The notes under the pieces were generated by a model. It worked only from the letters and a program-made list of their open reading frames with translations, was not told where the DNA came from and searched no databases. This document shows positions 21,004 through 60,802 of a stretch of 64,000 bases of DNA, piece after piece (position 1 is the stretch's first letter; every line of letters starts with the position of its first letter). The translations under genes and the position numbers were made by a program. Source of the DNA: Hypanus sabinus (lineage: Eukaryota); NCBI RefSeq assembly GCF_030144855.1, contig NC_082727.1, positions 29,512,001 through 29,576,000 on the forward strand, read 5' to 3'.

Positions 21004-24000
21004 AAATCATTGAACGAAGTACAGGAACCACCAGGTCTTACCCTGCACCATACTCGTACAAGCCACTCTTTTCAACAAGGCCTTTTCAATCATGGGCAAC
21101 AACACCGATTTCGGTAGCTGGACAAGCCAAGTCTGGAATTACCTCTCTTTCAAGTTCAACGTCCAACACGCCTACAGCCTCCCCACTAAAATCAATTTGG
21201 TCTGTCTCTTCTGCTTCACCTATCAGATCAACCATAGGAGCTTCCACAACTTCCTCAGTAAGATCTATGAGTGATTTAGCATCTCCACTTAGATCATTTA
21301 AGTCCACATCTTCACCTATAAAAACTGTAGTGACACAGACTCCGTATTCTGTTAAATCTTCCTCTGCTTTGGTTTCTTCACCAGTGAAAGCATCAGTAAT
21401 GCCTGAATCATCTTCTGTAAAAGGACTAACTTCGTCATTGCTTTCTTCACGGCTTTCTCCGGCATCAACAGCAGGATCGCTTCTGGAGAGATCCTCCATT
21501 ACCATGACGCCGCCAGCTTCCCCTAAAGCTACTGTTAATATGTACTCATCCACCTTGCCATTCAAGTCCATAATTACAACAGCACCCACAGTCCTGTCCT
21601 CGCCTTTGAAATCCATATCATCTTCGGGGTCTTCTCCTATTAAATCTGTCATTGAAGCAGCTCAAGGACTTCCCGCTGCCTCGTTTCCTCCTTCTCAGTT
21701 GGCTACTTCATCGAACGGCCAGATATCTGCTAATGGAGTGGTATCTCCAGTCAAGTATCCCTCAGCTGCAGCTTTCTTCAGCAGTCAGACATCCGGTTCG
21801 TCTCCTGAGAAAGCATCAGCCACTATGCTGGCAAACAAGTGCATCACAACTGTACAAAATGCAATGGAGAAAGCCTACACCACCAGTAATAGTGTCACGT
21901 TTGCCCCACTTAAATCCTTTGCATCAGCAGCCCCTTCTACTTTTCAGACAATAAGATTACCTTCTGCTGGCTCCTTGTATTCTTCATTGAGGTCTTCGTC
22001 TGTGACCACCACATCCGTGACATCATCAACAATAACTGTACCTGTGTACTCTGTCGTAAATGTGTTATCAGAGCCACAACTGAAAAGACTTTCAGAGACT
22101 ACACCATTAACCAAGTCAGCTGCTGCCTTGTTATCACCAGTAAAATCCTTGACTACAGAGTCTCGCATGCAAGTACAGTCTCAGTTTACCAAGACGTTGT
22201 CCCCGCTGAAGAACTCCCTGAGCCTAGCTCCTTCCACACTGAAACTTTCTTCTGCCGCCTCTCTGTCCTCAAGTCAGGAAATTCTGAAAGACGTGGCTGA
22301 GATGAAGGAAGACTTAATGAAGATGACAGCCATCCTGCAGACGGATTCTGCTAGTGACAAGGCATTCCCGTCAGAAATGACTGCAAAAGGAGTAAAGAGC
22401 GAGGACGAAAGTGAGGAACCTTTTAAGCTTGTGGAGAAAGTTAAGGAAGACTTGGTGAAAGTTAGTGAGATCCTTCAGAAGGATGGGCTGACGGAGAATA
22501 AGACTGGTGTAAAAGGAGCTCAGACAAATGGGGAGCTTTCAGGTGAGGGTGAATGGGTCATGTTCGACTACGATGATATTGAGGAGGCAAAGCAAAAGGC
22601 TAATGAGCACTTTGGCACGTATGTACCAATAAAAGTAAAAAATGGAGGAGAAAAGGACTTCAGTTTGGCAAGAGTCGTTGACTATTTAACAAACGATCTT
22701 GGAATTGATACGCTGGGAAAAATGGGTGACAATAAATATCGCCAAACCGATATCAAAAAGGAAGGTGAAGATAAAATGTTCTCTAAAAGAACTCATAAGC
22801 CAACCATGCCTTTGCCAGAACATAAACTTAAGATGCCTCCACCTCCCATGCGGCCATCGGTGTCGGAGAAGGAACTCAGCAAGCTTGCAGATGCATTGAT
22901 GGCGACCGAAGCTATTCTGGAGTCGCCTGATGATTTTTCTCAGCATGATCAGGATAAGAGTCCTCTGTCAGACAGTGGGTTTGAGACCAGGAGTGAAAAG
23001 ACGCCTTCTGCCCCTCAAAGTGCAGAGAGCACTGGGCCTAAGCCTCTCTTTCACGATGTTCCCATACCTCCAGTCATCACAGAAACACGTACAGAAGTAG
23101 TCCGCGTCATTAGAAGCTACGAACCTTCATTAGGTGAAATGCAGGAGCCCAAAGCCGAGGGGTCAGCTGCATTGCAAAATGCAGATATGTTCTCGGAAGT
23201 GGAAGAGAAGCCAATTGGGTCAATAAAAGACAAGATGAAAGCTTTTCAAATTAAAATGAAATCAGAGGACGAAGAAAGTAAGTGCTTGAAGAGCAAAGAA
23301 GTGCGTGTGAAAGAAGAAACTCAAATTACGACAACTACCAGGATGGTTTATCACACACCTCCCTGTACCGAAAGCAACACGAGTGAGAGAATAGAAGAAA
23401 CCATGTCAGTTCGTGATATAATGAAGGCTTTTCAGTCAGGCCGTGATCCTTCCAAAGAGCTAGCTGGCCTGTTTGAGCATAAGTCGACAGTTCCTTCAGA
23501 AAGCAGCAAGGCTGCAGAATCAATGTCAATTTACCTTGATAAAGACTCTAACTTGAAACCAAAAGTTGAAAGAACTTTTGAGTTTCATATTGAAAAGGGA
23601 AATAAAATAGAGCCGACAGAAGTCATTATAAGGGAGACGAAAAAACACCCCGAAAGAGAATTATTCGTTTATCAGAAAGATTTTTTGGGGGACAGTGAAG
23701 TAAGAGAAGCCAAAGTTCTCCCTGAGAGGTTTGATGCTGGTCAGAATGAGCAGGCACAGCGGGAAGAGGAGGAGCTCACAGCTGAGGAATCCCTTCCCTC
23801 CTACATGGAATCCTCAAGAGTGAACACTCCTGTCTCCCAGGAGGACGAGAGCCGTCCCAGTTCAGCACAGCTCATCTCCGATGACTCGTACAAGACGCTG
23901 AAGCTTCTGACTCAGCAGTCAGTCGAGTACCATGATGATGAATATTCCGAGCTGAGGGGAGAGTCCTACAGGTTTGCAGAGAAGATGCTTCTTTCTGAAA

Positions 24001-27000
24001 AAATGGATATTCCTCATTCTGATACTGAAGATTCTGCCACTGAACAGACCTCGGCCTTCTGCCTGGGCTCACAGGCCATTGGTCATTACAAGAGACTGAG
24101 TGACCCCTCACAGGAGAGGGAACTTGCTAAGCTGCACAAAATGCTACCTGATAACATTGACAAATCAACTGGTCAGGGGAGTCGCTACGAAAAGGTTGCA
24201 GTACTACATTATCCGCCAGAGTCTGGCAGTCCAAAGCATGCTCTGTGGATGCGTTTTAGTGAAGACAGACTGGACGGTGGCAGAGAGAAGCTCATTTATG
24301 AAGACAGGGTTGACAGAACGGTGAAGGAGGCAGAAGAGAAGCTGACTGAAGTATCTCAGTTTTTTCGAGACAAAACAGAGAAGTTAAATGATGAACTGCA
24401 GTCGCCAGAAAAAAAGCCACACAAGAGGGAAGGAGTGCAAAACCATTCGGGGTTCAGTTCTGCTAGCAGCAGTCCAGAGAAGTTGCGGCTGTCTGACATA
24501 GCCAGTGACGAATGGGGCCAGGAGAGGCTGAATGAGCAGTGTCTCCGTAAATATTCGGTCCGTGCCGAGGAGAAGAGAGTGGCCAATGCACTGCTGGATT
24601 CTACTCAAAGGACTTGCTTGCCCCTCTCAGATGACATGAAACATAAAATGAAGCAGTGTGAAGATCTCTCACAAACATCATTTCATTTAAAACAAACCGT
24701 AAACAATATTCCGTATTCAGAGTCCGAGCCGGCTGTAACGCAGAAAGGCAGCAAATCCTCTCGATGCGCCCCCTTGCAAGACGGTGTTCAGGACAGTCAG
24801 CCTGACACCAAGCTGAGAAAAATGATTGTTCCTTGCTCTAGCACTCAAATTGTTGAGGAGGTGAAAGCAAACTTTGCAGAAAGGAACTTGCGAGATGATC
24901 CACTAAGTGTGTCTGTTAAAAGACTGCACGAAAGCAAGCTGCCAATCTACCAGTTCTCTTTAAAGGAGATCAATCAGAAGAAGTTGGAGCACGCAGCGGA
25001 AGGGGCCATTTCAACGGTGAAGGAAGTGCACTCCAGTAAGTTCAAGGACTTAAGCAATCTCGGAGGTTTTAACATGGGAACCGACACTGTATCGCCAGTA
25101 CTTCAGAAGGTGGTGGAGATTACGTCGCATGTGGCCACGACTCCAAAGCAGCTGGTGTTTAGCACAAAAGTTCAGCCTTCTGAAACGGCAGCACCATTGA
25201 GAAAAGATCCTGAACCTCAAGTAAAATTGGATAAAGAGAAAAAGGTGTACAGAACCTGGGAGAACTGTGGAAATTCCAATCGCAAATCACTTACGCATGT
25301 TCTTGTGCACGACAACCTGGTGGAACATGATGTGGCTCAGGCGGAGCTTAGATCCGACGGGCTGACGAGAGAAAAGTTCGGCCCTGTTATGGATAAGGAG
25401 CACCTGTCAAATAACAGGCACTTGATAAAGGAGACGGGGTCTCCGTCCAAGAAAGTGGGTTGCACAGAGCGAATTGTCAGAGACGGTGAGAGTTCTGGAG
25501 CTAAGCCTGCGAGAAAGGAGAATTCAGGTCCATCACAGATCCCAGTCAGAGTTCCTGAAGAAAAACCAAAAGTGATGTCAAAGATCCAGCCATGTAACGG
25601 TGGCCAGGTGAAACTCCACGAGACTGATGCCGTCATCAACATGTCTCGTGGTAGAGCCAGAAAGGGTCAACAGTTCAATGAAGCACCAGCAGCGAACATC
25701 CAGACCAGGGAATCCAAGGATAGTCAGTCCAGAGTTAGGGAAAGCACAGACAGTTGGCGGGAAGAACCGGAAACCTCCCCTGTCAAATCTCCTGACTCTC
25801 TGGAGCTTAGTCCTGTTAAAGATTCTTCGCTGAGCGAGTTCTTCGATCAGAGTCCAATTGAGTGTTTGGACAAAGCAGCACCTCTAGCAAGCATTGAAGG
25901 TTTTAAAGAAATAAAGGCTTTGCCTGTCTACATCAGTGTTGTTCAGATGGGGAAACACTATGAGAAAGAAGCAACAGGCCCTCAACAAGGAAGTCTTAAG
26001 CGAATAGTCAGCCAAGAGAGTAGGACAGTGCAGGAGACGAGGGGCACTTTTTATACCGTTCGCCAACATAAGCCGTCCCCCTCTCCTCAGGGTAGTCCAG
26101 AAGATGACACCTTGGAACAAGTATCACTTATAGAGAGTTCTGGTAAAAGTCCTCTTACGCCAGAAACACCCAGTTCCGAGGAAGTCAGCTATGAACTTAC
26201 TTGCCAGGTGCCATCCATACATGGAAAGCCTTGTCCAATTCCTGAAGTACCTGGAGAATCTGAGGAAGAAGAGGTGGTCAGAATCCCCTCCGTTAAGGAT
26301 GTGAGTGGATTTACAAGATCCCCAAAGCAGAGTGATTTAGACGGAAGTGACAAACGCCCAAAGGAAAATCGCGTAGCCTACATCGAATTCCCTCCGCCCC
26401 CTCCTATCAACACCTTGGATGCAGAGGTGCCCGAAATCAGGAAAAAAGACCGCTGTGCATCCATGGAGGATGAGCTGGACGTAATTGAGCTGAACTTGCA
26501 GGAAGAGCATGATAAACACTTCATGGCTGAGCCTGTCATCAGAGTGCAACCACCCTCCCCTATCCCGCCTGGGGCCAATGACAGTGATTCAAGCAGCGAC
26601 GAATCCATCTTCCAGCCAGCCCCCTTGAAAAAGTACACCTTCAAACTTCAGGACGACACTCCTCCCGGCTCATCAAAGCCGAAACCAAATGAGAAGCATG
26701 GCAAAGACGACGATCCCCAAGATGGCGATGAAAAGTTTGCTTTGGATGTTACTTCTGAGGCGGATGCAGTCCCGAATGGCAACAATGATCAGTCAGTCAC
26801 TGAGTGCTCCATAGCGACGACTGCAGAGTTCTCCCATGACACCGACGCTACAGAAGTTGACTCTCTCGATGGATATGACCTGCAGGATGAAGATGATGGC
26901 CTAACAGAAACAGACTCTAAGTCCTTGAATCAGGGAATAGAAAGCAAAATGGATGTTTGGGTCACTGAAGGGATATTGAAGCAGGGGGATCGTTCCTATA

Positions 27001-28752
27001 GCCAGGGTAAACTTGCAGTAATTGAGGAAGAAGGAAAGGTAGGCGCTGAAGAAGAAACACCCTTGCAGTCTAAAGCTCAGACTTCTGAAAAGAAAGGCGA
27101 AGGGAAACCTGATGGTAAACAAGGACCTGAGATCTTCACTTTGGAAGGCAGGCATCCTGACAGAACCGGGTTTAATGATACATATTTTAGTTACAATCTA
27201 GATGAAGAATTTGCAACCCCGTTTAAAACTGTTGCTACCAAAGGCCTTGACTTTGATCCATGGTCTAACGGCCGAGGAAACGATGAAGTCTTTGAAGCTA
27301 GGTTGAGAGAGGATGAGCAAAAAGCCTTTGGCTTAGCAGTAGAGGACAGGTCCCAAGCAACAACACCAGATACAACCCCAGCCAGAACCCCAACAGATGA
27401 GAGCACTCCAACTAGTGAGCCTAATCCCTTCCCATTTCATGAAGGGAAGATGTTTGAGATGACTCGCAGTGGTGCAATTGACATGAGCAAGAGGGATTTT
27501 GTTGAAGAAAGGCTCCAATTTTTCCAAATTGGTGAGCATACTGCTGAAGGGAAGTCAGGGGACAAGGGGGAAAGGGTTAAAAATACACTTGTAGTCACAA
27601 CATTGCCTCAGTCAGGGGAAAACACAACTGAGGCATCAACAGATGCACCACAAGTTGAGCACGAGAAAACCCAGACTAGCGGAAATGGTCTGGAATCGGT
27701 ATCCGGTGGCAACGCAGCGGACAAATCTTCATCAGCCACGGCTGCAAAAGTTGATCCCAAGTTACGCACGCCAATTAAAATGGGAATTTCTGCTTCTACA
27801 ATGACGATGAAGAAAGATACGGGTGCAACTGAGCTGGTTGAAGTTAAAGCTGATACTGTGCTGTTAGATTATCAGATTTCAGAACGTGCAGTGCTAGAAA
27901 TAGCTACAGTTGAGACTAGAGCTATGAGTCAGGAATATATTATAGAAAATGACAGCACTGATTTGCCTTTAAGTTATAATATAGACAAGTTTGATGCCCC
28001 AGTCCCAGAAACTGACTGCGCTATGGATATTAGTCAGTCTGAAGCCAAACCAACAATTGAACCAGTTGTCCACACAGAAGAGAAAAATCTAGGTTCCTTG
28101 ACAGCCCCAACAGCTGATGTAGCAAAACTTGTTAAGCACGTTGCTGAACAAGTAAAAAAGCCCAAATCGAGACTTCCAGTAAAAGCAACCATGGCCCCAC
28201 TGTCAATTCCTCATACAGATCAGAAAATGGCAGCATGCAAGATGAAACAGCCTAGGAAGAATGAGTTAAAGGCAAAAACAGATCCTCCTAAATGTTGTGA
28301 GACAAAATCTAGAATTCCTATTAAAAATAATGACAAAACTAATATGCCTCCACTGACAGTATCCCAGTCCAGTATAGAGCAAGGGCAGATAGCAAAAGTA
28401 AAGTCTAAGCAATCTTATTCCAGATTGCCAGTTAAGGTAAGATCTAGCAGTACCACAGCTAAATCAAGTAGAACAAGCAAAGGGCAGGCAAGTGAGGTTT
28501 GTAAACATTCATTTGGATATTTTAAAGGGATTAGCAGTGAGGCAATGAAACTTGTGGATCGACATGCCAATGAAGAGAAAAAAGGGCAGCCAGAGATCTC
28601 TGATGAAGACAGCACTCCGAGAAATGGATCTTTATCGGAAGCCGGCCTGCCCTCCATTGCATCGAGGTCTAGAGATATGAGACCAGAGGCAGCATCTTTA
28701 AAATCAAAGGTTGAAAAGGTCTACAGTGAGACAAGGAACAGTAAAAGGACTG
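21004..28752 (+). CDS. ANK3: ANK3 giant neuronal exon (480-kDa ankyrin-G insert: Ser-rich domain plus tail)
   Basis: aaaag|AAATCATTGAACGA is in frame with the 2518-aa ORF. Donor ACTG|gtgggg gives 7749 nt, phase 1 to 1; an alternative donor lies at 28815. Conserved blocks: SQEILKDVAEMKEDL, DKSPLSDSGFETRSEKTPSAPQS, YEDRVDRTVKEAEEKL, EGKMFEMTRSGAIDM. Confidence 0.97.
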
Positions 28753-29370
28753 GTGGGGAGGAGAACAGTCAGGTTTCTGGGCCTCGCGTGGCTCGCACCG
28801 CGGAGATCAAGCCTAGTTTGTAAAACTTTCGACTTGTTGATCTTTAGTGCATGACTCTTTGTGATTGCCTGTGGTGTGATTTACCCTTAGCTGCCATGCT
28901 GTCATTGTCGTCTGTGTTGTCTCGTATCCCCCACCCCCCCCGTTTTCTCCAGTGTAATCCCAGTAGTTATAGTAAAGCATGCCAACCAACATCTAGCAAA
29001 AGGCATTAAGCCACATCCTTGCTGCCGTCCAACAATTCTTCTTAAGTCAGACGAGCAAGTGCAACACTTTTATAAGTACTTTTATTAACTGCATATACAG
29101 TTTATTCATTACCTCCAGTTACACAACATTTAGCAAAGTTCTTGGGTGTTTTCAGCATGTTCAAGTTCATTATCTATGTTACACATACATTTTTTTTTAC
29201 ATTAATTTGAAGTTGGACCTTGTCACTGATTGCAGTAGAATTTACAATTGTGTAGGTCACGAGGGTGTGTTTATTTGTTTAACATGGGCACGAGTAGATT
29301 CTTGACCTAAGTTTGGATGTTTTATGTATTACTTGGAATGTTGCTCTAATTCCATGTTTAAAAACTGCAG

Positions 29371-33790: not shown

Positions 33791-34361
33791 TAGTTAAATG
33801 CGAGAGTGAAGTTTCTCTTCATTTAGTTGCAGGTTGTTAATAAGTGATTCCATGTCTGCAGTATTATAGCGTACATCAGTGAAATAAGCATTTCAGATTG
33901 ATGATTTTTCATCAGAATTGTGCCCTGATGAAAGGACCTCAGTCTGAAATAGATTTTGCAGATGCTGGAAATCCAGAGCCACACATTCCTCCCCCTTTCC
34001 TTTCCAGTCCTGATGGAGCATCTTGGCCTGAAACACCATCTGTCTTTTCCCCTGCGTAGATGTTCCCTGACTTGCTGTTTTCTTCCAGAATTTGTGTATT
34101 AGTCTGTATTAGTAGCTCCTTCTCCCTCCACAGTTGGTTTCTGAACCCTCAAGTACATGCAACTTTTTCTGTTTTTATTGCGATTTTCATCATTAGTATT
34201 ACTTAATGTTTAACAAAGAGTATTCCCAGTCTGTCATAGGAAAAGCCCTCCTCACCACTGAACACGCTTACATGAAGTGCTGTCACAAGAAAGAAGCATC
34301 TCTCATCAAAGAACCCCTTCAGCCGGGCCATGGTCTCCTCTCAGTACTACCATCTTACCAT

Positions 34362-34469
34362 TCCACACCACCAGGAGTGTCAAGTCCCACGCCACCAGGA
34401 GCGTCAAAGTCCCACGCCACCAGGAGCGTCAAGTCCCACACCACCAGGAGCTTCAAGTCCCACACCACC
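34362..34469 (+). repeat. 24/25-bp minisatellite, left arm (about 4.5 units)
   Basis: Unit aagtcccac(a/g)ccaccaggagcgtc read directly. Confidence 0.9.
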
Positions 34470-34615
34470 GGGGGGACGTCACGTGATGACGTAGGATCGA
34501 GACGCTGGAATCCAGCCCTCCCGTAAAAAAGTTAATAAATCAATGTCAAAGTGAAGAAAAGTTAATTAATACTTTTTTAAGGTTACTTATAAACTAGTCC
34601 GGATTGTTTTAAGCT

Positions 34616-35719
34616 ATGCCTCATAAACAGAGGACGAAGAAAACTGCTACCGCGAAGACCGCTCAAGTTGGAACAGAATCAAGGCCTACTTCTACCGAAG
34701 AACCGCGGACTCAGGTACAACACACCACCGGTGAAACAGAAAAGGAGACTGCGGCAGCATCGGCCATTTCTAAAGGGAAAGATCAACGAGAACTGCGCAA
34801 GCGTAAAGGAACGAGCATGCGCAAAAGAGAACAACCAGAACTACAAATCCCAGCAACGACTGAAACCGACAGTGAAAGTGAGTCTGAGAGAGAGACGGAC
34901 TCTCTGGAAAAATCAGATGAAGATGGAGAAGACGAAAGTTCCTCTGAAAGTACAAAAAAGACTTTGAGGCAAATAATGCATAAATTAAAGGCATTAAAAG
35001 TAATTAAAAGTAACCAAAAAGTAATGACACAAAAAATAGCAAACATGGAGGCTATGTTTGATAAAATGACAAAGAAACAGGAAAAAATGGAAAAGAAAAT
35101 TATAGATTTGGACGTCAGAATGGAAGATATGGAGGGAAGAATGAAGAAGATGGAAGATGATAATGACGCCTGGACATCAGAAAGAAAACAACTCGTGGGA
35201 AAAATTGATAAACTTGAAAATTTTAGTAGACGCAATAATATTAAAATTGTTGGACTTAAAGAAGGTACCGAAGGAGAAGACCCAATAAATTTTTTTCAAA
35301 AATGGATTCCTGAAAAATTGGAAATGGGAGAAGAACCTTTAATTGAGATTGAAAGGGTGCACAGAGTTTTAAGACCAAGATCTCAAGATGATCAAAATCC
35401 GCGATCAATTTTGATAAGATGTTTAAGATACCAGGATAAAGAAAAGATTTTGAGGGCGGCTGCCCAGGGTGCTAAAAGAAGAAAAGGTCCGTTGATGATA
35501 GCTGAGAAACCAGTTCTTTTTTATCCTGATATAAGTTATAACCTTTTGAAGAGAAAGAAAGAATTTAACCCAGCTAAAAAGGTTTTGTGGGAAAAAGGTT
35601 ATAAGTTTTCAATGCGTCACCCAGCAACACTGATAATTTTTTTGGAGGAAGGAAAAAGATTTTTTTCTGACTATCAAGATGCGGAGGTGTTTGCACAAAG
35701 ACTTCCATCTATTCGTTGA
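34616..35719 (+). CDS. L1 ORF1p (coiled coil, RRM, CTD), 367 aa
   Basis: LENFSRRNNIKIVGL, IEIERVHR, PRSILIR, FYPDIS motifs of L1 ORF1 (Transposase_22-type). Confidence 0.93.
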   Translation: MPHKQRTKKTATAKTAQVGTESRPTSTEEPRTQVQHTTGETEKETAAASAISKGKDQRELRKRKGTSMRKREQPELQIPATTETDSESESERETDSLEKSDEDGEDESSSESTKKTLRQIMHKLKALKVIKSNQKVMTQKIANMEAMFDKMTKKQEKMEKKIIDLDVRMEDMEGRMKKMEDDNDAWTSERKQLVGKIDKLENFSRRNNIKIVGLKEGTEGEDPINFFQKWIPEKLEMGEEPLIEIERVHRVLRPRSQDDQNPRSILIRCLRYQDKEKILRAAAQGAKRRKGPLMIAEKPVLFYPDISYNLLKRKKEFNPAKKVLWEKGYKFSMRHPATLIIFLEEGKRFFSDYQDAEVFAQRLPSIR

Positions 35720-36176
35720 TTAAAAGCGGAGATTTCTAAATGTAATGGTTAAAGACGAAGACAGAGAAAGTAAATGGAACTGATGGACATTTAAGGACGA
35801 TATAAGGGAGAAAAGTAATATTTTAGAAATATTAATTGAGAATGGTATGTTTTTTTTTTATATATATATATCTTTCATGTTGCGGGGGGGCTGGGGAGCT
35901 TTGAATCGGTTACTACGGGATTCACGTGTGTAATCATGGCGATTGCCATGACCCGTACAATAGAGGGGGGTAATGTTGTGTTTCTTTTTTTTCACAACAT
36001 TAGTAGGGGGGTATTTTGTTTTTTTCTTTATTTTCTATTTTTCTTCTATTCTTTTGCCTGGATGATTGGTGGGGACACACATAGCAACATGGAGACTTCT
36101 AAAAAGATTTCCCAGGATATAATGAGAGTTGAAAGATTAGGTATTATTATAGATTGGAGTAACATAAATAAAAATA

Positions 36177-39100
36177 ATGACTAATTTATTGAATTTTTTA
36201 AGTTTTAATGTTAATGGGCTTAATGGACCAATAAAAAGAAAAAGAATTTTAACATACATTAAAAAAATGAAAATAGATATAGCTTTCTTACAAGAAACTC
36301 ATTTAACGGATATAGAACATCAGAAATTAAAAAGAGACTGGGTTGGAAATGTTATTGCAGCTTCATTTAACTCAAAGGCAAGAGGAGTTGCAATTTTGGT
36401 TAATAAAAATTTACCAATTAAAATACAAAATGTATTAATTGATTCGGCAGGAAGATATTTAATTATACATTGTCAAATTTTTTCAGAACTATGGACTCTT
36501 ATGAATATTTATGCACCAAATGAAAATGATGTAAAATTTATACAGGAGGTTTTTTTGAATTTGGCTAATGCACATGATAAAATATTAATAGGTGGAGATT
36601 TTAATTTTTGTTTAGATCCAGTTTTAGATAGATCAACAAAGGCTATTACAAAATCAAAAGTAGCAAAATTAACTCTATCATTGATGAAAGATCTAAATTT
36701 GATTGATATATGGAGAAGAATCAATCCAAAAGAAAGGGATTATTCATTTTATTCAAATAGACATAAAACATATTCTAGGATAGATTTTTTCCTGTTATCA
36801 ACAAATATTCAAGATAGAGTGAAAAACATGGAATATAAAGCAAGAATATTGTCTGATCACTCTCCTTTAATAATGACAATGATAATGACAGATAAAGAGG
36901 AATCAATTTATAGATGGAGATTTAATTCAATTTTACTAAAACGTCAAGATTTTTGTGATTTTATGAAAAAACAGATTCAGTTCTTTTTAGATACAAATTT
37001 ACATTCAGTTGATGATAAATTTATATTGTGGGAAGCAATGAAAGCATATTTGAGAGGTCAGATAATAAGTTATACTTCTAAAATTAAGAAGGAATATATG
37101 ATAGAAATAGATCAATTGGAAAAGGAGATTATAAAATTAGAAAAAGAATCTCAAAGAAATATGACAGAAGAAAAACGAAGACAACTTATTAATAAGAAGT
37201 TAAAATATAATACACTCCAGACATATCGAACAGAAAAAGCAATTATGAGAACTAAACAGAGATATTATGAATTAGGTGAAAGATCACATAAAGTTCTTGC
37301 ATGGCAGTTAAAAACAGACCAGATTTCTAAAACAATAAATGCAATTCGAACAAAAGTGAATGAAATTACTTATAAACCTCTAGAAATTAATGAGGCTTTT
37401 AAGAATTTTTATTCTGAGTTGTATAAATCAGAATCAAAGAATGACGATGTTAAGATAGAAGAATTTTTATCACAAATAACTCTTCCAAAATTAAATACAG
37501 AAGAACAGAAGGGATTAGGTATGTCTTTTACAGTGAAAGAAGTTGAAGAAGCTTTGGGATCACTTCAAAGTAATAAATCTCCAGGAGAAGATGGTTTTCC
37601 ACCTGAATTTTATAAAAAGTTTAAAGATTTATTAATTCCTCCTTTTATGGAATTAATATATCAGGCGGAAAGAACGCATAAACTTCCAGAATCTTTTTCA
37701 ACAGCTATTTTAATAGTATTGCCAAAAAAAGACAGAGACCTTTTAAAACCAGCATCATATAGACCTATTTCTTTATTAAACACTGATTATAAAATAATAG
37801 CAAAAATCTTATCTAATAGATTATCTAAATGCTTACCAAAATTAGTGCATATGGATCAAACAGGATTTATCAAAAATAGACAATCGGCAGATAATGTAAC
37901 TCGGTTATTTAGTATAATCCATTTAGCACAAAAGAGGGAGGAAATGAGTGTGGCGGTTGCTTTAGATGCAGAGAAAGCATTTGATAGATTGGAATGGGAT
38001 TTTTTATTTAAGGTATTGGAAAAATATGGATTAGGAACATCATTTATAAAATGGATTAAAACCTTAAATACTAATCCCAAAGCTAAAGTAGTGACAAATG
38101 GTCAAATTTCAACATCATTTCAGTTAACAAGATCAACTCGGCAAGGTTGCCCACTATTACCTGCTTTGTTTGTGTTGGCAATAGAACCATTAGCTGAATT
38201 AATTAGAATGGACCCAGATATTAAGGGTTTCAGAGTTAATCAGGAAGAATACAAGATTAACTTATTTGCTGATGATGTTTTAATTTATTTAACAGATCCA
38301 TTACATTCACTACGCAAATTATCTTATAGACTAGAAGAATATGGGAAAATATCGGGTTATAAAATAAATTGGGATAAAAGTGAAATTTTGCCTCTTACTA
38401 AAGGAGATTATAATCAATGTCGATTAATAACTCAATTTAGATGGCCAGCAAATGGTATAAAATATTTAGGTATAAGAGTTGATAATGATATAAAAAACTT
38501 ATACAAATTAAATTACTTACCGCTTTTGAAAAAAATTCAGGAAGATCTTGAAAAATGGATGGCACTACCAATAACATTAGTAGGTAGAGTAAATACTATA
38601 AAAATGAATATATTCCCTAGATTACAATATTTATTTCAATCATTACCAATACAATTACCCCAGAAGTTTTTTCAAGAGTTAAATAAATATCTGAGGAAAT
38701 TCCTCTGGAAAGGTAAGATGTCCAGAATATCGTTGGAAAAATTGACATGGAAATTTGATCTAGGAGGATTACAACTTCCAAATTTTAAGAATTATTATAA
38801 AGCAAATCAACTTAGATTTATTGCATCTTTTTTCGAGAAAGATAAACCGGCATGGATTAGAATAGAATTAGATAAAATAGGAGAAAATGTACCAGAAGAT
38901 TTTATATACAAATGGGAATCTAAATGGATACGGGAAAAGAAAGAATCTCCTATATTAAAACATTTGATTGATTTATGGAATAAGATAAATGTTGATGATG
39001 AGATAAAAAAATCTTTATTAGCAAAGAGATCTTTAATTCAAAATAGACTTATTCCTTTTACAATGGACAATCAACTTTTATATAATTGGATTCAAAATGG

Positions 39101-39968
39101 GATTAGATATATAGGGAATTGTTTTGAAGGAGGTATATTAATGTCATTTGAACAATTAAAGAATAAATATAAAATATCAAACAACACTTTATTTTGTTAC
39201 TTTCAATTAAGGGCTTATTTAAGAGAAAAATTAGGTCAAACAATGTTATTGCCGAAATCTAATGAAATAGAAATTTTAATTCAAAAAGGAAACATCAAAA
39301 AATTTGTATCTTGCATGTATAATTTGATTCAAAGACAGGTAATTAAGCAAGGAGTCCACAAGTCAAGACAAAAATGGGAAAGTGATTTGAATATTAAAAT
39401 TGAAGAAACAAATTGGTCAAGACTATGCCTTGACAGTATGACAAATACAATAAATGTTCGGTTAAGATTAGTGCAGTATAATTTTCTACATCAATTATAT
39501 ATTACACCACAAAAAATAAAAAAATTTAATCCAAATTTATCGGATCAGTGTTTCCGATGTAACCAGGAAACTGGTACTTTTTTACATTCGACATGGTCTT
39601 GCTCTAAAATTCAACCTTTTTGGACAAATTTAAGACTTTTACTGGAACAAATTACAGGAACACAATTTCCTCATAATCCAATATTATTTTTACTAGGTGA
39701 TATTGAAGGGATAAAACCGAAACTCAAACTAAATAAGTATCAGAAAGAATTTATAAAAATTGCACTGGCAGTAGCCAAAAAAGCTATTGCAGTTACTTGG
39801 AAATCGGATTCACATTTAAGTATAGATTCTTGGAAGAAAGAAATCTATGGTTGTATTCCATTAGAAAAAATTACTTATAATTTAAGAGATAAATATGAAA
39901 CATTTTTGAAAATTTGGAGCCCTTATTTACAAAAGACAGGATTAAATATACAGATGCTTTTAAGATGA
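36177..39968 (+). CDS. L1 ORF2p (APE endonuclease, reverse transcriptase, C-terminal Cys motif), 1263 aa
   Basis: Endonuclease: NVNGL, LQETH, GGDFN, SRIDF, SDH. RT: KSPGEDG, YRPISLLN, LDAEKAFD, RQGCPL, FADD, KYLG. C-terminal CFRC...H...C. No stops or frameshifts. Confidence 0.96.
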   Translation: MTNLLNFLSFNVNGLNGPIKRKRILTYIKKMKIDIAFLQETHLTDIEHQKLKRDWVGNVIAASFNSKARGVAILVNKNLPIKIQNVLIDSAGRYLIIHCQIFSELWTLMNIYAPNENDVKFIQEVFLNLANAHDKILIGGDFNFCLDPVLDRSTKAITKSKVAKLTLSLMKDLNLIDIWRRINPKERDYSFYSNRHKTYSRIDFFLLSTNIQDRVKNMEYKARILSDHSPLIMTMIMTDKEESIYRWRFNSILLKRQDFCDFMKKQIQFFLDTNLHSVDDKFILWEAMKAYLRGQIISYTSKIKKEYMIEIDQLEKEIIKLEKESQRNMTEEKRRQLINKKLKYNTLQTYRTEKAIMRTKQRYYELGERSHKVLAWQLKTDQISKTINAIRTKVNEITYKPLEINEAFKNFYSELYKSESKNDDVKIEEFLSQITLPKLNTEEQKGLGMSFTVKEVEEALGSLQSNKSPGEDGFPPEFYKKFKDLLIPPFMELIYQAERTHKLPESFSTAILIVLPKKDRDLLKPASYRPISLLNTDYKIIAKILSNRLSKCLPKLVHMDQTGFIKNRQSADNVTRLFSIIHLAQKREEMSVAVALDAEKAFDRLEWDFLFKVLEKYGLGTSFIKWIKTLNTNPKAKVVTNGQISTSFQLTRSTRQGCPLLPALFVLAIEPLAELIRMDPDIKGFRVNQEEYKINLFADDVLIYLTDPLHSLRKLSYRLEEYGKISGYKINWDKSEILPLTKGDYNQCRLITQFRWPANGIKYLGIRVDNDIKNLYKLNYLPLLKKIQEDLEKWMALPITLVGRVNTIKMNIFPRLQYLFQSLPIQLPQKFFQELNKYLRKFLWKGKMSRISLEKLTWKFDLGGLQLPNFKNYYKANQLRFIASFFEKDKPAWIRIELDKIGENVPEDFIYKWESKWIREKKESPILKHLIDLWNKINVDDEIKKSLLAKRSLIQNRLIPFTMDNQLLYNWIQNGIRYIGNCFEGGILMSFEQLKNKYKISNNTLFCYFQLRAYLREKLGQTMLLPKSNEIEILIQKGNIKKFVSCMYNLIQRQVIKQGVHKSRQKWESDLNIKIEETNWSRLCLDSMTNTINVRLRLVQYNFLHQLYITPQKIKKFNPNLSDQCFRCNQETGTFLHSTWSCSKIQPFWTNLRLLLEQITGTQFPHNPILFLLGDIEGIKPKLKLNKYQKEFIKIALAVAKKAIAVTWKSDSHLSIDSWKKEIYGCIPLEKITYNLRDKYETFLKIWSPYLQKTGLNIQMLLR

Positions 39969-40096: not shown

Positions 40097-40216
40097 TAAG
40101 GGGTAGTTAGGGGGGAGGGGTTAAGGGGAGGGGGTATGGGTTATATACATTGTTTTTTTTCATACTTTGTAATCATTTAAAAATGCAATAAAAAATTATT
40201 TAAAAAAAAAAAAAAA

Positions 40217-40700
40217 AAGTCCCACACCACCAGGAGCGTCGAAGTCCTACGCCACCAGAAGCGTCAAAGTCCCACGCCACCAGGAGCGTCAAGTCCCACA
40301 CCACCAGGAGCGTCAAGTCCCACACCACCAGGAGCTTCAAGTCCCACACCACCAGGAGCGTTAAGTCCCACGCCACCAGGAGCGTCAAGTCCCACACCAC
40401 CAGGAGCCTTTAAGTCCCACGCCACCAGAAGCGTCGAAGTCCCACGCCACCAGGAGCCTTTAAGTCCCACGCCACCAGGAGCCTTTAAGTCCCACACCAC
40501 TAGGAACGTCAAGTCCCACGCCACCAGGAGCCTTTAAGTCCCACACCACCAGGAGCGTCAAGTCCCACGCCACCAGGAGCCTTTAAGTCCCACGCCACCA
40601 GGAGCCTTTAAGTCCCATGCCACCAGGAGCGTCGAGTCCCACACCACCAGGAGCCTTTAAGTCCCACACCACCAGGAGCGTTAAGTCGCACACCACCAGG
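40217..40700 (+). repeat. 24/25-bp minisatellite, right arm (about 20 units)
   Basis: Same unit with gagcgtc / gagccttt / gagcttc variants. Confidence 0.93.
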
Positions 40701-42524
40701 TTCAGGAAGCGTTCTCACCCTGCAACCATTAGACTCCTGAACCCATGGATAACTTCACTCACCTCAATACTGAACTGATTCCACAAACAACTTTCAAGGA
40801 CTCTACAAATCAGTATTTTTTAAATTATTTGCACGATTTGTCTTTTTTGCACATTGGTCGGTTGATAGTCTTTGTGATTTATACCTTTTTCACAAATTCT
40901 ATTATATTTCTTTATTTTCCTGTAAATGCCTGTAAGCAAATATATCTCAGGGTGGTATATAGTGACATAAAAATAGTTTGATAATAAACACTTTGAATGA
41001 GCTCAAAAATCACACTTGTGTTCATGACCTAATCTGAGATGACAATTGATGGAAAATACAGTTATAAATAACTAATCTCAAGTTCATTTAATATAGTGGT
41101 ATTTATTCCAGGTCTTAAAATACTATAGAGAGTCTTTAATTAACAACAGGAAGTTAGTGAAGTCTTCTGGCTATTGCTCCCCTTACCTTAAGTGACTGTT
41201 TTTCATCTTACTGTGAGATGTCATGGCACAGTTGTGCAGCAGATGGGGTCACAGATTCGCATGTTCTTCCTGCGACTGTCAGGATTCCCGCTGAGTGCTG
41301 AGATTTCTGTCATGTCTCAAATACGTACTGGCTGATAGTGACTGTAAATTGCCACTAGTGCAGGTGGATAATAGGAGAATCAGGTGGTAGGATTTAGAGT
41401 ATAGAACAGAGAACACGACAACACAATACAGGTCCTTGGACCTGTGAAATTGTGGCAATCTTTTAACCTACTCTAAAAGCAATCTTAACACTTCCTTCTG
41501 GCTTAGCCCTCTGGTTTTCTATCATCAATACTGTATGCCTATCTAAGAGGTTTTTTTAAATGTCTCTAATATATCTGCTCCCGGCTAAGCATTTCATGCA
41601 CCCACCACTCTCTGTTTCACAAAAGCTTACCTCTGATAACCTTTCTTCCAATCACTTTATAATTATCCCCCCCCCCCCTTGTATTAGCTGTTTCCACCCC
41701 AGGATAAGATCTCTGGCTGTCCACACAATCATCTTGTACAACTCTATCAAGTCACCTCCATCCTCTTTTATTCCAAAGACAAAACTGCTCAATCTATCCT
41801 TTTAAGACGTGTTCTTTAATCTGGGCAGCATCCTGGTAAATCTTGATGAGCCCAAGATAGAATAAGTTACTGGGTGATAATTGGAGTTACAGGATTAATG
41901 GAATTATTTCAGAATAGGCTCTGAAGTTATACTGCACAAACACAGACCATTCAGCTTATCGGTACCGATCAGGATGTCTATATACACTAGTCTCATATTT
42001 CTGCTTTGGACTTGCGCCCCTCTATTCCTCTCCTACCTATGTACCTTTCCAAAAACAGTACTTTTTAAATGCTGTAATTTTACCTGCCTCTCTCAGCTCA
42101 TTCCATATCCACATTCCCTCTGTGTAAAATAAACCTCACTTCTCAGATCCACTTTAAATCTTTCCTCTCTCACCTTTAGCCAATACCCTCTAGTCTTAAA
42201 CTCTCATACACAAAGCAATGATGATCTATCTTATCTGAACTTCTCCCAAAACATAAGGAAAATGAGAACTGTTGTGATCACATGTGAAGCAACATCTTTT
42301 GAATTTTAAATGAAATTAGTGTGGAATGTTTTAAGTTAGTTGAATGCTTTTGTAGCTATGTTTCTAAAGCTGGCAAACATGAAGTGTTTTAGAGCATTGG
42401 AATTTATCGGCTGTGTTTACAAGGCAGTAGGCTGACCGTAAATTTGCGCCACTCCATGAGAACCAATGAGGAAGGCTACAATCCAGGCAAGATGGTGCCA
42501 AGGTGCAGTTTCTGTTTCCTGAAT

Positions 42525-42892
42525 CCTGGTTTTATCTCTCCATCGAATACTTTTATTTTGGCCTTCCATTCATCCTGCTGAGCTTTGGTCTTTGCATCTA
42601 CTTTTACAGACAGCTTTTTGTCTCCCACTTGAAGTTCATGTAGTAATCTTAAAGCATAAAGAGTAGATTCTGGTTCTTTATGCTCAAAAAAGCAAGGCCC
42701 TTGCAACCTCACTGAAGCTCCATGAACTCTCTTCCAGCTTAAAACCAAGCCACATTTTGCAAGTAACTGCCTGACTAATACATCAGAAATTCTCTCAGAA
42801 ATTCATCACTTTCACGATTTCCCTCAGCAGCATGCTCCTTCCTTGGTCCAATATGCTTCCAACCAAAGGCCCAGAGGTTGGCACCAACACCA
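42525..42892 (-). pseudogene. RBM25: RBM25 processed fragment (N-terminal RRM region), frameshifted and with deletions
   Basis: VLVPT..VG/KHIGPRKEH..ESDE/ISERISDVLVRQLLAKCGLVLSWKRVHGAS..HKEPESTLYALRLLHELQVGDKKLSVKVDAKTKAQQDEWKAK matches the RBM25 RRM (recalled). No introns. Confidence 0.88.
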
Positions 42893-42934
42893 ATTTTCCC
42901 TCCATCGGGGAGTGGTTCATGGTGTGCAGCATAA

Positions 42935-44543
42935 AGGCAGGTGTGGCATGTGACTGGTGGATGGATCTCCAATTAAGTTGTAGTTCTGTCAGCCGCTCAT
43001 GTCCAGCCCTCCTGTTTTTACCACATACAAGCCCAATGTGGCTTGTTGGTTGTTGGATTTTACTGTTATGAGTGTCTTTCCCACAGGAGTTGTCTTTTCC
43101 CTAGTATAGGTTCTTTGATATCTGCAGGCTTCAATTTAGTGTCTTTGAAATGCCATTCAAATTCATTTTGTGGAATAGTTGAACAACTGAGCCAGTGTCA
43201 AATTCTGTACTAATTAATTTTCTGTTCACTTCTGATATAAGCCATATTGCTGGTCTATTGCTAGTTTTCACATTGTAAATCTCAAGGCTAGGAAGTCCTG
43301 TGTCACTCATCATTATCGAATTTTTCATCAACAGCATACAGATTAGTATGCTTAAGCACATCTTTCCCTCCTCCCCACCCTTTCCGCTTTCCACAGGAAT
43401 CGCTCCCTACGTGACTCCCTGGTCCATTTGTCCCACCACATCCCTTCCCACCGATCTCCCTCCTGGCACTTATCCTTGTAAGTGGAACAAGTGCTACACC
43501 TGCCCTTACACTTCCTCCCTCACCACCATTCAGGGCCCCAGACAGTCCTTCCAGGTGAGGCAACACTTCACCTGTGAGTCGGCTGGTGTGATATACTGCG
43601 TCCGGTGCTCCCAGTGCAGCCTTTTATATATTGGTGAGACTCGACGCAGACTGGGAGACCATTTCACTGAACACCTACGCTCTGTCCGCCAGAGAAAGCA
43701 GGATCTCCCAGTGGCCACACATTTTAATTCCACGTCCCATTCCCATTCTGATATGTCTATCCATGGCCTCCTCTACTATCAAGATGAAGCCACACTCAGG
43801 TTGGAGGGCTCCCCCTTTTCGATTCCCTTTTTGTTTATGAAACCAAGAGCGTTCTGCAATCAACGTTAGTTTCAGTTCTGAATGTTCCTGCATTATTTTC
43901 ATGATATCAACCAAGCTCATTTCGGATGGGTTGGTTGGAATAGTGAAATTTCTAAGCAAAGTGTAAGCCTTTAAACCCAAAGCGCACAGCAAAATTGGTA
44001 CTTGATTCCCATTGGCTATTTTATTTGTTTAAGTTGAGCGCATCAATCTTTCCAATGTGGCCGGCTATTTCTGATTGTTTGTTTTAGGATTATTGTCACC
44101 CAGTACTCATTGTTTATGAATCTGTGAATTTTCTGCTTTTTTTAAAACTCGACCCTATCTGTCTCCTTTTCTGAAGAGCACATGCTGTGTTGTTTTTTTC
44201 CCTCGACCATTTCTTGCTGCATATTTTTTTTTACTCGAACGTCTCGCTGTGCTTCAATGGGCAGATAGTCATCTTGGGTTTGTTTTAAATTTCCTCGTTG
44301 CCTCTGCTATGCTTTGTAACCTCAAGAGATTAAATTAATTAAAAGCAAAAGAGCTCGAGCTGGGAATGTGAGTCTAACTTTGTATTGACTTTGAGGCACT
44401 TGCTTGGTGGTGTGATGACATATGCCATTTATGCACTTTTGCCTATAATCAGCGATGCATTCTGCATTCTGTGAACAACAAAGTAGTCAAACAATACATT
44501 TACATTATTACTCAAATATTACATTAATATTAAATACACAGCA
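42935..44543 (-). mobile_element. Decayed Gypsy/Ty3 LTR retrotransposon: 5' LTR (~44305-44543), PBS, gag, protease
   Basis: PBS-like aggcaacgagg next to the LTR. Gag-like AGHIGKIDA...LGLKAYTLLRN...LIAERSWFHKQ. Protease EFDTGS. No RT/integrase or 3' LTR seen. Confidence 0.75.
43354..43808 (+). mobile_element. Penelope-like element fragment (GIY-YIG endonuclease) inside Gypsy gag
   Basis: CxxxxCxxC linker, then VIYCVRC...LYIGETRRRLGDHFTEH...PVATHFN. Confidence 0.88.
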
Positions 44544-58400: not shown

Positions 58401-59189
58401 TTACACAGTCAGTTTTGATTAATTAATTTGATAAAATTAAGTTAATGGTGTCTTTCACAAAAAAAAACTACTTTAGGGCATTCCATTTCCCATTCTCATT
58501 TTAACTTGATGGTCCATGGCCTTTGCTGCCACAATGAGGCCACTCTCGAGTTGGAGGAACACCGCCTCCAACTTGACAGTATTAACATTGATTTCTTTTT
58601 CCAGTACCAATTCTGGCTCTCCTTTTACCCCTTCCTTTCTTATTTGCCCATCACCTCCCTCTGGTGCACCACCTCTTCCTTCCCTTTCTCCCATAGTTTA
58701 CTCTCCTCTCCTATCAGATTCCTTCTTCCTCAGACCTTTATCTCCTCCATCTATAGCATCTCAGCTTCTCACTTCATTCCCCCTCCAGCACCCACCTACC
58801 TTCTCACCTATCACCTGCCAGCGTGCACTCCTTCCCCCTCCACCCACTTCTCGTTCTGGCTTCCTCCCCCTTCTTTTCCAGTCGGGATGAAAGGTCTTGG
58901 CCTGAAACATCAACTGTTCATTCCCCTCCGTAGATGCTGCCTGACCTGCTGAGTACCTCCAGCATTGTGGATGTATGTGTTCCTCTGGGATTTCCAGCAT
59001 CTGCAGAATCTCCTTTGTTTATGTAGGGTAGTTGATTGCAATGTAACTATACGATAGTTATTTCCGCACAGTTACATTTCACCATCAGTGTTGAGTAAGT
59101 TCATGTTGTGTTACCATTACTTGTTGTGTTTCTGTATGCGATCCTGCATGTTGTCTGTAGTTTGTTCCATTGTGTTTTTGCTCACTCAG

Positions 59190-59883
59190 GCTACTCTTCC
59201 ATCCATGCGGAGCTGCTGACACCTGCTGCGTTAAGCTACTTGCCACCCACCCCTCTTCACTGTGATGATTATTTTAGTAATTACCCCAGTGTACAATCAG
59301 CTTCCCCAACTCCCCATCAAGTTAGTCTGGCAACAAAAGAATTATCACCTTTCAGCGATGCTGAGGAAATTTCAGCAGATTTTGCTCATGCTGATTTGCC
59401 TGGGCCCTCTCTGGTGACAGATGAGGCGGTCGCTTCCTTACCTGGGAAAGTGGATGAGCCAGAAAGTACCAAATGTGACTCTGACTTCCAGCCCGAGAGT
59501 GGTACCATTTGTGTTGCTCATCTGTCCACTAATATAGAGCAGGTGGATCATGTCCAGCCACAGAAGGATGACTACGTGGCCGAACAAAAGGTGTCTCCCA
59601 ATCAGGCGCAGCAAGAAGGAAGACCTGATACACCCAGTACTGAGGATCTTGAAGGGTCCATAAGAGACATGGAGGTGGTGCAGCCAAGGCGAAGTTCCAG
59701 AGGTTCAGAGGATGAGGAGGTGACAAAGGAAGAAGTCCACATGCTTCACCCTGCCCAGATTTCCCAGAAAGAATTTTTTACAGTTCCAGGTTGGCGCAGC
59801 GACGCATCCAGTGTAGACGTGGAGCCACCAACTCCGAAGAGCTGTCACCTGAGTACTGATGATCTGGATGAAGGCAGCGCCAA
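59190..59883 (+). CDS. ANK3: ANK3 C-terminal regulatory-domain exon (long form; short form starts at 59790)
   Basis: actcag|GC TAC...GCC AA|gtaagt. GYSSIHAELLTP...PPTPLHCDDYFS resembles the rodent acidic C-terminal insert; the internal ccag|GT TGG gives GWRSD. Confidence 0.88.
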
Positions 59884-60802
59884 GTAAGTGGGATGTTCTC
59901 ATACCGCTGTCGCGATGAAACTTACGTGTTGCAGCAGGTGGTCACACCACTCTCCTACCCTAAAACCCATTTGCTGCAGTGCCATTTGTATCTCCAAGGT
60001 GCTTTCAGTTGAAGTACTCCAGTAATATGGCAATTGTGCTTTGCAATGCACATGCATTTAGTGGCTAAAGATCAGCTTTATTTGTTACATGGGAACATAC
60101 AGTGAAATGCATCAGACCAAACCAGTGAGTATCGTGCTGGGCAGCCTGCAAGTATCACCATGCTTCTGGCGCCAACACAGCATGCCCACAACTCGCTGAC
60201 CCTAACTGTACAACTTTGTACTGTGGGAGGAAACCGGTGCACCCAGAGGAAACCCAGCTAGTCACGTGGAGATTGTACAGACGCCTTACAGACAGAGGTG
60301 GGAGTTGAACTCCGCTCGTACAGCTAGTGCTGTAACCATCTTATGCTAACCACTACGCTACCGTACATGCCATTTAGCAGAATCCCATAACCAGTAGTGC
60401 AGTCACGATCTAATTATCTGGCTTATTGATATTGGTCAAGGGATAAATGTTGGTCAGCACTCTGGGGATGGAATAATGCTCTTCAGAATATTGCATTGGA
60501 TTGCTTTGCGTTCACTTTATAGAGCAGGTTTGACCTTGGTTTAATGTTTCAAGCAAAAGACAACAACTCCAGTCATGCAGTTCTTTTTTAGTACTGCACT
60601 CATTTTGACGTATTAGACTTTATGCTCAAGTCTCTGACATTGGACCTGGATGCATAACTTTCTGGGTCAGGAAAGGAGAACATTACCAGGTGATGGGATT
60701 TTCTTCTTTTGTCTGTTGGTTGTGAAACAACTGTGAACAGTCCATCTAGTTTTTACTGCCATAACTGAAATGGAAAGTTTTGACTAGTTAGTTCTCCTAA
60801 AG

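What the first reader, a model, noticed from the sequence alone, without database searches (positions are those of the whole stretch)
42525..44543. Gypsy element fused directly to a spliced RBM25 fragment: candidate host-gene capture
Seen: on the minus strand, LTR, PBS, gag and protease run without a spacer (junction ~42895-42940) into an intronless RBM25 RRM fragment in the same orientation, where RT would be expected. The fragment is internal to the CDS, has no poly(A) or TSD, and has internal deletions (the GPTTTVFVGN/RNP2 stretch is missing). These features are unlike an ordinary L1-made retrocopy. Inference: template switching onto co-packaged RBM25 mRNA during LTR-element reverse transcription. 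This route is known from retroviruses and from plant and insect LTR elements, and I know of no description in cartilaginous fish. No 3' LTR is visible, so the case is incomplete.
Basis: partly seen in the sequence, partly recalled or inferred. Interest (0 to 1): 0.72.

Follow-up and report, generated by a model that had tools for sequence, protein, structure and literature searches.

The report
Jumping-gene family carrying captured RBM25 mRNA
This is one old, broken copy of a jumping-gene family in a likely cartilaginous fish that carries an intron-free piece of the host splicing gene RBM25 where its own copying enzymes should be; the hybrid likely arose once by a copying slip and then spread to about a thousand or more places, a known kind of gene capture on an unusually large scale.

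Summary
Observation confirmed, but it is not a one-off. The window holds a decayed Gypsy-type element (5' LTR, PBS, gag broken by a Penelope-like insert, protease) joined to 426 aligned nt of spliced RBM25, 84.5% identical to the host gene and crossing five exon junctions. The same junction occurs at 943 places in this genome, control 0, against 2,320 for the RT-bearing parent. Sibling copies have two LTRs, a PPT and 5-bp TSDs. RBM25 (exon 3 tail to exon 10) replaces RT-RNaseH-integrase, with 7-nt and 9-nt microhomologies at the joints, in frame with gag-pro. Best reading: one double template switch onto co-packaged mRNA, then amplification in trans; copies have since decayed neutrally. The missing RNP2, the missing 3' LTR and a 57-nt junction deletion are later damage to this copy. 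Three other coded organisms share this insertion. The mechanism is published (Tan et al. 2016); I found no paper on this family or this scale. The scan already noted this family in other genomes and once elsewhere in this one.

The parts
44305..44543 (-). 5' LTR, about 240 bp
   Evidence: Matches both LTRs of sibling and RT-bearing copies at 70-88%; end placed
44293..44304 (-). Degenerate primer-binding site; siblings read (G)TGGCGACGAGG-like, complementary to the 3' end of tRNA-Ser(GCT)
   Evidence: PBS list; matching genomic tRNA ends (36 places, control 0) are tRNA-Ser(gct) in 2 of 2 loci scanned
43835..44150 (-). 5' part of gag, decayed (limits approximate)
   Evidence: blastn to RT-bearing copies L100 and L103; the matching L100 frame has only weak PNMA and Retrotrans_gag hits under cut-off
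43347..43835 (+). Penelope-like GIY-YIG fragment nested in gag, standing where about 470 nt of gag are missing; a later insertion
   Evidence: ORF 43279-43869, GIY-YIG E 0.006 under cut-off; gap against siblings; very high repeat depth. The name Penelope is recalled
42949..43347 (-). End of gag and aspartic-protease region, frameshifted
   Evidence: About 80% identical to RT-bearing copies; DTG motif visible (motif recalled); Pfam gave no protease hit
42942..42948 (-). 5' junction: 7-nt microhomology TGCCACA shared by Gypsy pol and RBM25 exon 3. This copy has lost 57 nt between two such repeats, so its joint is secondarily shortened
   Evidence: Alignment; the shortened form matches at only 4 places genome-wide
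42521..42948 (-). Spliced RBM25: last 10 nt of exon 3, 48-nt cassette exon, exon 4 (37-nt deletion at 42803/42802), exons 5 and 6, first about 19 nt of exon 7; RRM region
   Evidence: exon limits are good to about 1 nt
42300..42520 (.). Single-copy flank after the 3' break; the rest of RBM25, the integrase tail, PPT and 3' LTR are gone from this copy
   Evidence: All sibling matches stop at 42520-42526; single-contig depth here and contigs bridging the break in runs X1, X4, X7

Best explanation
The locus is a decayed, 3'-truncated copy of a non-autonomous Gypsy-type LTR family in which spliced RBM25 mRNA replaces RT-RNaseH-integrase; it likely arose when reverse transcriptase switched twice onto and off a co-packaged RBM25 mRNA at short shared sequences, and was likely then multiplied by the enzymes of its intact parent family. 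Shown: family structure LTR-PBS-gag-pro-[RBM25 exon 3 tail to exon 10 start]-integrase tail-PPT-LTR, about 2.2-3.3 kb when free of later inserts; one shared 5' joint and one shared 3' joint; at least 943 junction copies; 5-bp TSDs; nested deletion subfamilies; neutral decay after insertion. Inferred: co-packaging, the two switches (during minus-strand synthesis RT would leave the integrase tail at the 9-nt match, copy the mRNA, and return at the 7-nt match just after protease), trans-mobilisation, and a copy number of roughly 1,500-2,500. The chimera likely spread because it kept every cis signal, was about half the parent's length and could still make Gag; the RBM25 cargo was most likely a passenger.
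For: Junction counts 943 chimeric vs 2,320 parent, controls 0. Unbiased census, counted by eye on the first 100 listed: 5' site 36 RBM25-type, 59 RT-type, 5 other (of 550 matches); 3' site 43 purine-rich RBM25-type, 56 integrase-type, 1 unclear (of 170). RBM25 starts at mRNA nt 161-170 in 25 of 30 loci not chosen by the junction pattern. Microhomology 7 nt and 9 nt; random-joint null P 8e-4 and 7e-5. The 5' joint keeps three exon-3-specific bases, so it is not a splice from a Gypsy donor. Parent copies carry RVT_1, RT_RNaseH_2 and rve (rve under cut-off) in Gypsy order. TSD: of 76 loci, 11 had both outer LTR ends placed; 5 of 11 match at 4 of 5 nt, mean 2.9 of 5 against 1.2 of 4 in the 4-nt register. 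LTR-LTR divergence 14-24% in 7 elements equals copy-to-copy divergence, median 20%. The protease-region tree is a star and does not separate 55 chimeric from 9 parent rows. Decay is neutral: 11.9% at replacement-only sites vs 12.2% at four-fold sites per copy, while the host gene departs at 6 of 360 replacement sites. Host silent departures 23 vs 18 per copy, P 0.14, fit amplification soon after capture. Subfamilies: 45 of 76 loci with both anchors fall into 7-25, 86-109, 127-135 and 176+ nt classes, and 34 of 53 typed copies share a derived exon-7 variant.
Against: The capture step itself is ancient and cannot be observed; microhomology also marks DNA-level deletion and repair. The 5' joint lies only 10 nt from a splice donor, which also suits a provirus-in-gene route. 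No TSD matched perfectly and only 11 elements could be scored. The tree has almost no support (2 of 61 inner branches starred, bootstrap unsettled), so a single origin rests on shared joints, not on phylogeny. Some copies multiplied by segmental duplication (5 of 40 sampled are one locus), so 943 slightly overstates insertions. No expression data were obtained.
Confidence: 0.78

Rival explanations
1. Provirus-in-gene transduction, as classically proposed for retroviral oncogenes (recalled): a family copy inserted upstream in RBM25, a DNA deletion fused pol to exon 3 at the 7-nt match, the read-through transcript was spliced and packaged, and one template switch supplied the 3' end. Amplification afterwards as in the best explanation.
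For: In-frame, same-sense fusion; 5' joint inside an exon followed by correctly spliced exons; needs only one RT switch.
Against: No LTR, gag or pol relic of this family in 160 kb spanning the host gene (C16:113.59-113.75 Mb; the only hits are to an unrelated insert inside L100). Such an allele would disrupt a conserved gene and could have been lost, so absence is weak evidence; exon 1 was not located.
Confidence: 0.13
2. A LINE-made RBM25 retrocopy or a cDNA repair patch entered a Gypsy copy at the DNA level, and microhomology deletions trimmed both ends before the element was remobilised.
For: An intact L1-like LINE lies in this window; microhomology deletions do occur in this family (57-nt case).
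Against: Needs an insertion plus two precise deletions before any spread; no copy with poly(A), TSD, 3' RBM25 exons or flanking RT/integrase was seen among 76 independent chimeric loci.
Confidence: 0.06
3. The window copy is a unique event or an assembly chimera.
For: Its joint differs from the family joint by 57 nt and it has no 3' LTR.
Against: 943 junction matches; contigs from runs X1, X4 and X7 bridge the 3' break and X1, X4 the 5' LTR edge at about 2-6% divergence.
Confidence: 0.01

Closest known systems
LTR-mediated retrocopies of metazoans (Tan et al. 2016, Genome Res 26:1663, PMC5131818; read parts 1-3 of 8 of the text plus passages; supplements not read)
   Same: Partial mRNA replaces internal ORFs; microsimilarity at joints (their median 6 bp, 25 of 29 junctions); no poly(A) or TSD on the cargo; both LTRs kept; re-mobilisation as a non-autonomous element proposed; seen in fly, mosquito, zebrafish, chicken, mouse, human.
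   Different: Their cases are young and few per genome (18 insertion sites for nine fly retrocopies; two with more than one site). Here one capture became 36-43% of the scored copies of its family, at least 943 places, with subfamilies. No cartilaginous fish was in their sample.
Maize Bs1 (passages in review PMC13317346)
   Same: LTR element carrying host gene fragments; cargo without full-length ORFs.
   Different: Three donor genes and a transcribed, translated chimeric gene; here one donor and neutral decay.
hAT-captured histone H3 in Pseudocercospora (PMC6710886; abstract and outline only)
   Same: A housekeeping gene amplified to hundreds of dead copies by a transposon while the original stays conserved; shared by related species.
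   Different: DNA transposon and DNA-level capture, with RIP inactivation; fungi.
Mag lineage of Ty3/Gypsy (passages and Table 1 of PMC3286476)
   Same: Short LTRs (their 119-304 bp; here about 240), 5-bp TSD, tRNA-Ser PBS.
   Different: No RT tree with reference Mag elements was built, so lineage membership is not established.
Acutely transforming retroviruses with gag-onc fusions (recalled)
   Same: In-frame gag-(pro)-host fusion, loss of pol, helper dependence.
   Different: No env; germ-line retrotransposon; no sign the cargo was selected.

Membership tests
LTR-mediated retrocopy (Tan et al. 2016) | Intronless partial mRNA | tested here: met
   Five exon junctions in the window copy; up to exon 10 in siblings
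LTR-mediated retrocopy (Tan et al. 2016) | Cargo replaces part of the internal ORFs rather than interrupting them | tested here: met
   5' side ends just after protease, 3' side resumes in the integrase tail
LTR-mediated retrocopy (Tan et al. 2016) | Microsimilarity at the switch points | tested here: met
   7 nt and 9 nt; null P 8e-4 and 7e-5
LTR-mediated retrocopy (Tan et al. 2016) | Both LTRs present | tested here: met
   Met for the family (both within the fetched 5 kb in 15 of 36, 3' LTR in 27 of 36); not met by the window copy, which is secondarily truncated
LTR-mediated retrocopy (Tan et al. 2016) | No L1 hallmarks (poly(A), own TSD) | tested here: met
   None seen at either joint
LTR-mediated retrocopy (Tan et al. 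2016) | Co-transcription from the LTR | not tested
   No RNA run was laid; copies are old
Non-autonomous LTR retrotransposon family | Dispersed copies with independent flanks, TSDs, PBS and PPT, lacking RT and integrase, with an autonomous partner | tested here: met
   TSD evidence statistical (5 of 11 at 4 of 5 nt)
Ty3/Gypsy | Domain order protease-RT-RNaseH-integrase, no env | tested here: met
   Parent copies L100 and L103: RVT_1, RT_RNaseH_2, then rve (under cut-off); protease by recalled motif only
Mag lineage | RT phylogeny within Mag | not tested
   No reference sequences on hand; only LTR length, 5-bp TSD and tRNA-Ser PBS agree
L1 processed pseudogene | 3' end of mRNA with poly(A) and TSD | tested here: not met
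   Cargo is internal to the CDS and ends in exon 10
Functional retrogene | Purifying selection on the cargo ORF | tested here: not met
   Replacement and four-fold sites decay equally; 73 of 76 copies have at least one frameshifting indel in the aligned part

The most novel reading that the evidence does not exclude
The cargo helped the element win: the in-frame Gag-Pro-RBM25 RRM fusion put a host RNA-binding domain into particles and favoured its own RNA, or carrying an essential splicing-factor mRNA shielded the element from small-RNA silencing. That would be a retrotransposon version of a gag-onc transducing virus that reached about 40% of its family. Hints: the 5' joint is in frame, and no stop or frameshift shared by most copies lies in exons 3-7 before about mRNA nt 750, while exons 8-10 were repeatedly deleted. 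But amplification began soon after capture, the deleted part is low-complexity, and my sampling required RBM25, so these hints have little power.
Probability: 0.15. Interest if true: 0.8.

Novelty: new variant of a known kind. Interest (0 to 1): 0.5.

Why it matters
It shows that one LTR-mediated capture of a host mRNA can become a high-copy vertebrate transposon family rather than a handful of retrocopies, confirming at scale what Tan et al. proposed from two fly cases. It offers a thousand or more dated replicates of a neutral copy of an ancestral RBM25 mRNA (useful for substitution rates and as presence/absence markers in cartilaginous fishes), preserves an old splice isoform, warns that retrocopy counts in these genomes are inflated by LTR families, and makes the question of silencing conflict between a TE and an essential donor gene testable in a vertebrate.

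Tried and rejected
Splice-junction origin of the 5' joint: suggested by blast hits starting at the cassette exon, rejected by the alignment. RNP2 deletion hotspot: ascertainment artefact. Second independent switch at the upstream repeat: only 4 genome-wide matches, so read as recurrent deletion. Faster host synonymous change or long pre-burst evolution of the master: not significant, P 0.14. Linked diagnostic sites for subfamilies in exons 4-7: none beyond the exon-7 variant; two weak pairs of 6,441 tested. Pfam PWI search missed RBM25; a protein search found it. Fused pro-RBM25 proteins in the protein collection: none among 37 hits, coverage at most 59%, lengths 121-385 aa only, weak evidence. 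Protease-region tree uninformative; the window's long branch comes from the Penelope-like insert in the flank. Only 4 of 22 listed runs were laid; more distant organisms were not examined, and organism names are coded, so the taxonomic range is open. Literature searches for this family gave nothing relevant in the listings: RBM25+retrotransposon, RBM25+processed pseudogene (78), chondrichthyan+retrocopy+LTR, 0 papers (79); a 2026 preprint on 244 vertebrate genomes has no RBM25 or Gypsy mention in its main text (10.64898/2026.06.26.734816, passages; its supplements are closed and could list RBM25). Repbase and Dfam could not be searched and may already hold the family unrecognised. PMC13477047 passages gave only general context.

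Full report
What is in the window. On the minus strand there is an LTR at 44543-44305, a degenerate PBS, a gag remnant, a Penelope-like GIY-YIG piece on the other strand at about 43347-43835 that stands where about 470 nt of gag are missing, a frameshifted protease region, and then RBM25 from 42948 to 42521. The RRM frame hits RBM25 proteins, best a shark protein at E 1.6e-33. The host gene lies on G000:C16 at 113.70-113.75 Mb. Its exons, spliced in a script, give an open RBM25 frame (limits good to about 1 nt). The window piece matches this at 360 of 426 nt and crosses five junctions: exon 3, a 48-nt cassette exon, exons 4, 5, 6 and the start of 7 (exon numbers are mine, exon 1 was not located). 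That the host is a cartilaginous fish is inferred from the cassette exon shared with shark proteins; 'ray' was not tested.

It is a family. The window's junction region found six other places covering protease plus RBM25 among 40 scored candidates, and many more covering protease alone. The RBM25 piece alone gave 40 of 40 scored matches from 2,545 candidates. A 27-nt pattern across the family's 5' joint matches 943 places with up to 3 mismatches, 61 exactly, control 0; the same site in RT-bearing copies matches 2,320. Open-ended patterns, counted by eye on the first 100 listed, gave 36 RBM25-type, 59 RT-type and 5 other at the 5' site (550 matches in all) and 43, 56 and 1 at the 3' site (170 in all). 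By hand, 61 of 943 implies about 11% divergence and about 65% detection, hence roughly 1,500-2,500 copies. Five of 40 sampled loci were one segmentally duplicated locus; four were dropped, leaving 76 independent chimeric loci for statistics.

Anatomy. Siblings read LTR-PBS-gag-pro-RBM25-integrase tail-PPT-LTR. In 36 independent junction-sampled loci, 27 show a 3' LTR, 18 a 5' LTR and 15 both within the 5 kb fetched. Of 76 loci (9 of them parent-type) 11 had both outer ends placed; five match at 4 of 5 nt as a target duplication, mean 2.9 of 5, against 1.2 of 4 one register off (chance about 2% per element by hand). LTR pairs differ by 14-24% (7 elements), like copies from each other (median 20%). 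The PBS is complementary to tRNA-Ser(GCT). Parent copies carry RT, RNaseH and a sub-threshold integrase hit in Gypsy order. LTR length, TSD and primer fit the Mag lineage as tabulated in PMC3286476, but no RT tree tested that.

The joints. At the 5' side, Gypsy pol just after protease and the end of RBM25 exon 3 share TGCCACA; chimeric copies then follow RBM25, keeping three exon-3-specific bases, so this is not a splice. The fusion is in frame with gag-pro. At the 3' side RBM25 exon 10 and the integrase tail share GAGAAGAAA, not in the integrase frame. Random joints reach these lengths with P 8e-4 and 7e-5. RBM25 starts at the same place in 25 of 30 loci not selected by the junction pattern. 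The purine-rich 3' part of the cargo was deleted in nested steps shared among copies: of 45 loci with both anchors, 19 keep 7-25 nt, 6 keep 86-109, 6 keep 127-135 and 14 keep 176 or more, and 34 of 53 typed copies share a derived exon-7 variant. This points to successive rounds of copying, though recurrent deletion in low-complexity sequence contributes.

Damage specific to this copy. A 57-nt loss between two TGCCACA repeats removed the original joint; this form is rare (4 matches). The RNP2 loss is a private 37-nt deletion. The 3' half is gone. These events are old: contigs from coded organisms A, C and E bridge the 3' break and A and C the 5' LTR edge at about 2-6% divergence; organism D's contig stops short of the break. 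The RBM25 part has hundreds- to thousands-fold the flank's summed depth in all four runs, which shows many copies there too but is no copy number (4 of 22 listed runs laid).

Function of the cargo. Copies differ from the host by a median 14.8%. Differences shared by most copies are 23 silent and 5 replacement, and several replacements match shark proteins, so they look like host-side changes. Per copy, replacement-only sites (42.7 of 360) and four-fold sites (10.0 of 82) decayed equally; the host departs at 23 silent sites against 18 per copy, P 0.14. So the family spread soon after capture and then decayed neutrally. The protease tree is a star that mixes chimeric and parent rows, with little support: same family, same burst. 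No stop or frameshift shared by most copies lies in the RRM region, so the active masters could have made a Gag-Pro-RRM protein; whether that mattered cannot be told from these data.

Mechanism and rivals. Best: two microhomology-guided template switches onto co-packaged mRNA, then trans-mobilisation (0.78 for the whole; the amplified-family part is near certain). Rival: provirus inside RBM25, DNA deletion, splicing and one switch (0.13); no family relic was found in 160 kb around the gene. Rival: DNA-level insertion of a LINE-made retrocopy with two trims (0.06); no intermediate among 76 loci.

Known and new. Tan et al. 2016 (PMC5131818; parts 1-3 of 8 and passages read) describe this structure and mechanism in six animals and propose non-autonomous re-mobilisation from two fly cases. 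Amplification of a captured housekeeping gene to hundreds of copies is known for a fungal DNA transposon (PMC6710886, abstract); Bs1 and the camouflage idea come from plants (PMC13317346, passages). My searches found no paper on an RBM25-carrying element or on LTR retrocopies in chondrichthyans; subscription papers, preprint supplements and repeat libraries were out of reach. The scan's own notes record the same family five times in other genomes and once in this one, and a similar Myc capture in a shark; I read them after forming and testing my reading, and they are not independent support. Verdict: real, mechanism known, scale unusual; a new variant of a known kind, interest 0.5.

Noticed in passing
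window 20961-28820 +: A 2,620-codon open frame; its first 1,000 aa match Ankyrin-2 in PDB (6kzj, E 3.5e-13). Likely the giant exon of an ankyrin gene (ANK3 by recall), so the element probably lies antisense in an ankyrin intron.
   Followed up: partly
window 34613-39968 +: Apparently intact L1-like LINE: 368-aa ORF1 (weak Transposase_22) and 1,266-aa ORF2 with endonuclease and RT; likely young.
   Followed up: partly
window 40192-40731: Tandem array of 24-25 bp units, related to a stretch at 34308-34479.
   Followed up: no
G000:C16:113706119-113706166: 48-nt in-frame cassette exon of RBM25 before the RRM, present in shark proteins P0001, P0121, P0122 but absent from the gar, deer and frog proteins printed. 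The element captured the exon-including isoform and keeps a Met codon where this host now has Leu and the sharks have Met.
   Followed up: partly
G000:C1:50.2-56.0 Mb (L111, L112, L133, L134, L135): One chimeric copy with its flanks multiplied by segmental duplication, 89-98% identical over 4-5 kb.
   Followed up: partly
G000:C17:70981604: A family copy in which the 5' microhomology site appears joined directly to the integrase tail with no cargo.
   Followed up: no
G000:C16:113871786 and 113872518: A parent-type 3' end lies about 700 bp from a tRNA-Ser(GCT) gene, the likely primer type, about 125 kb downstream of RBM25; probably coincidence.
   Followed up: no
window 59099-59884 +: 262-codon open frame with no Pfam hit; possibly another exon of the host gene.
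   Followed up: no
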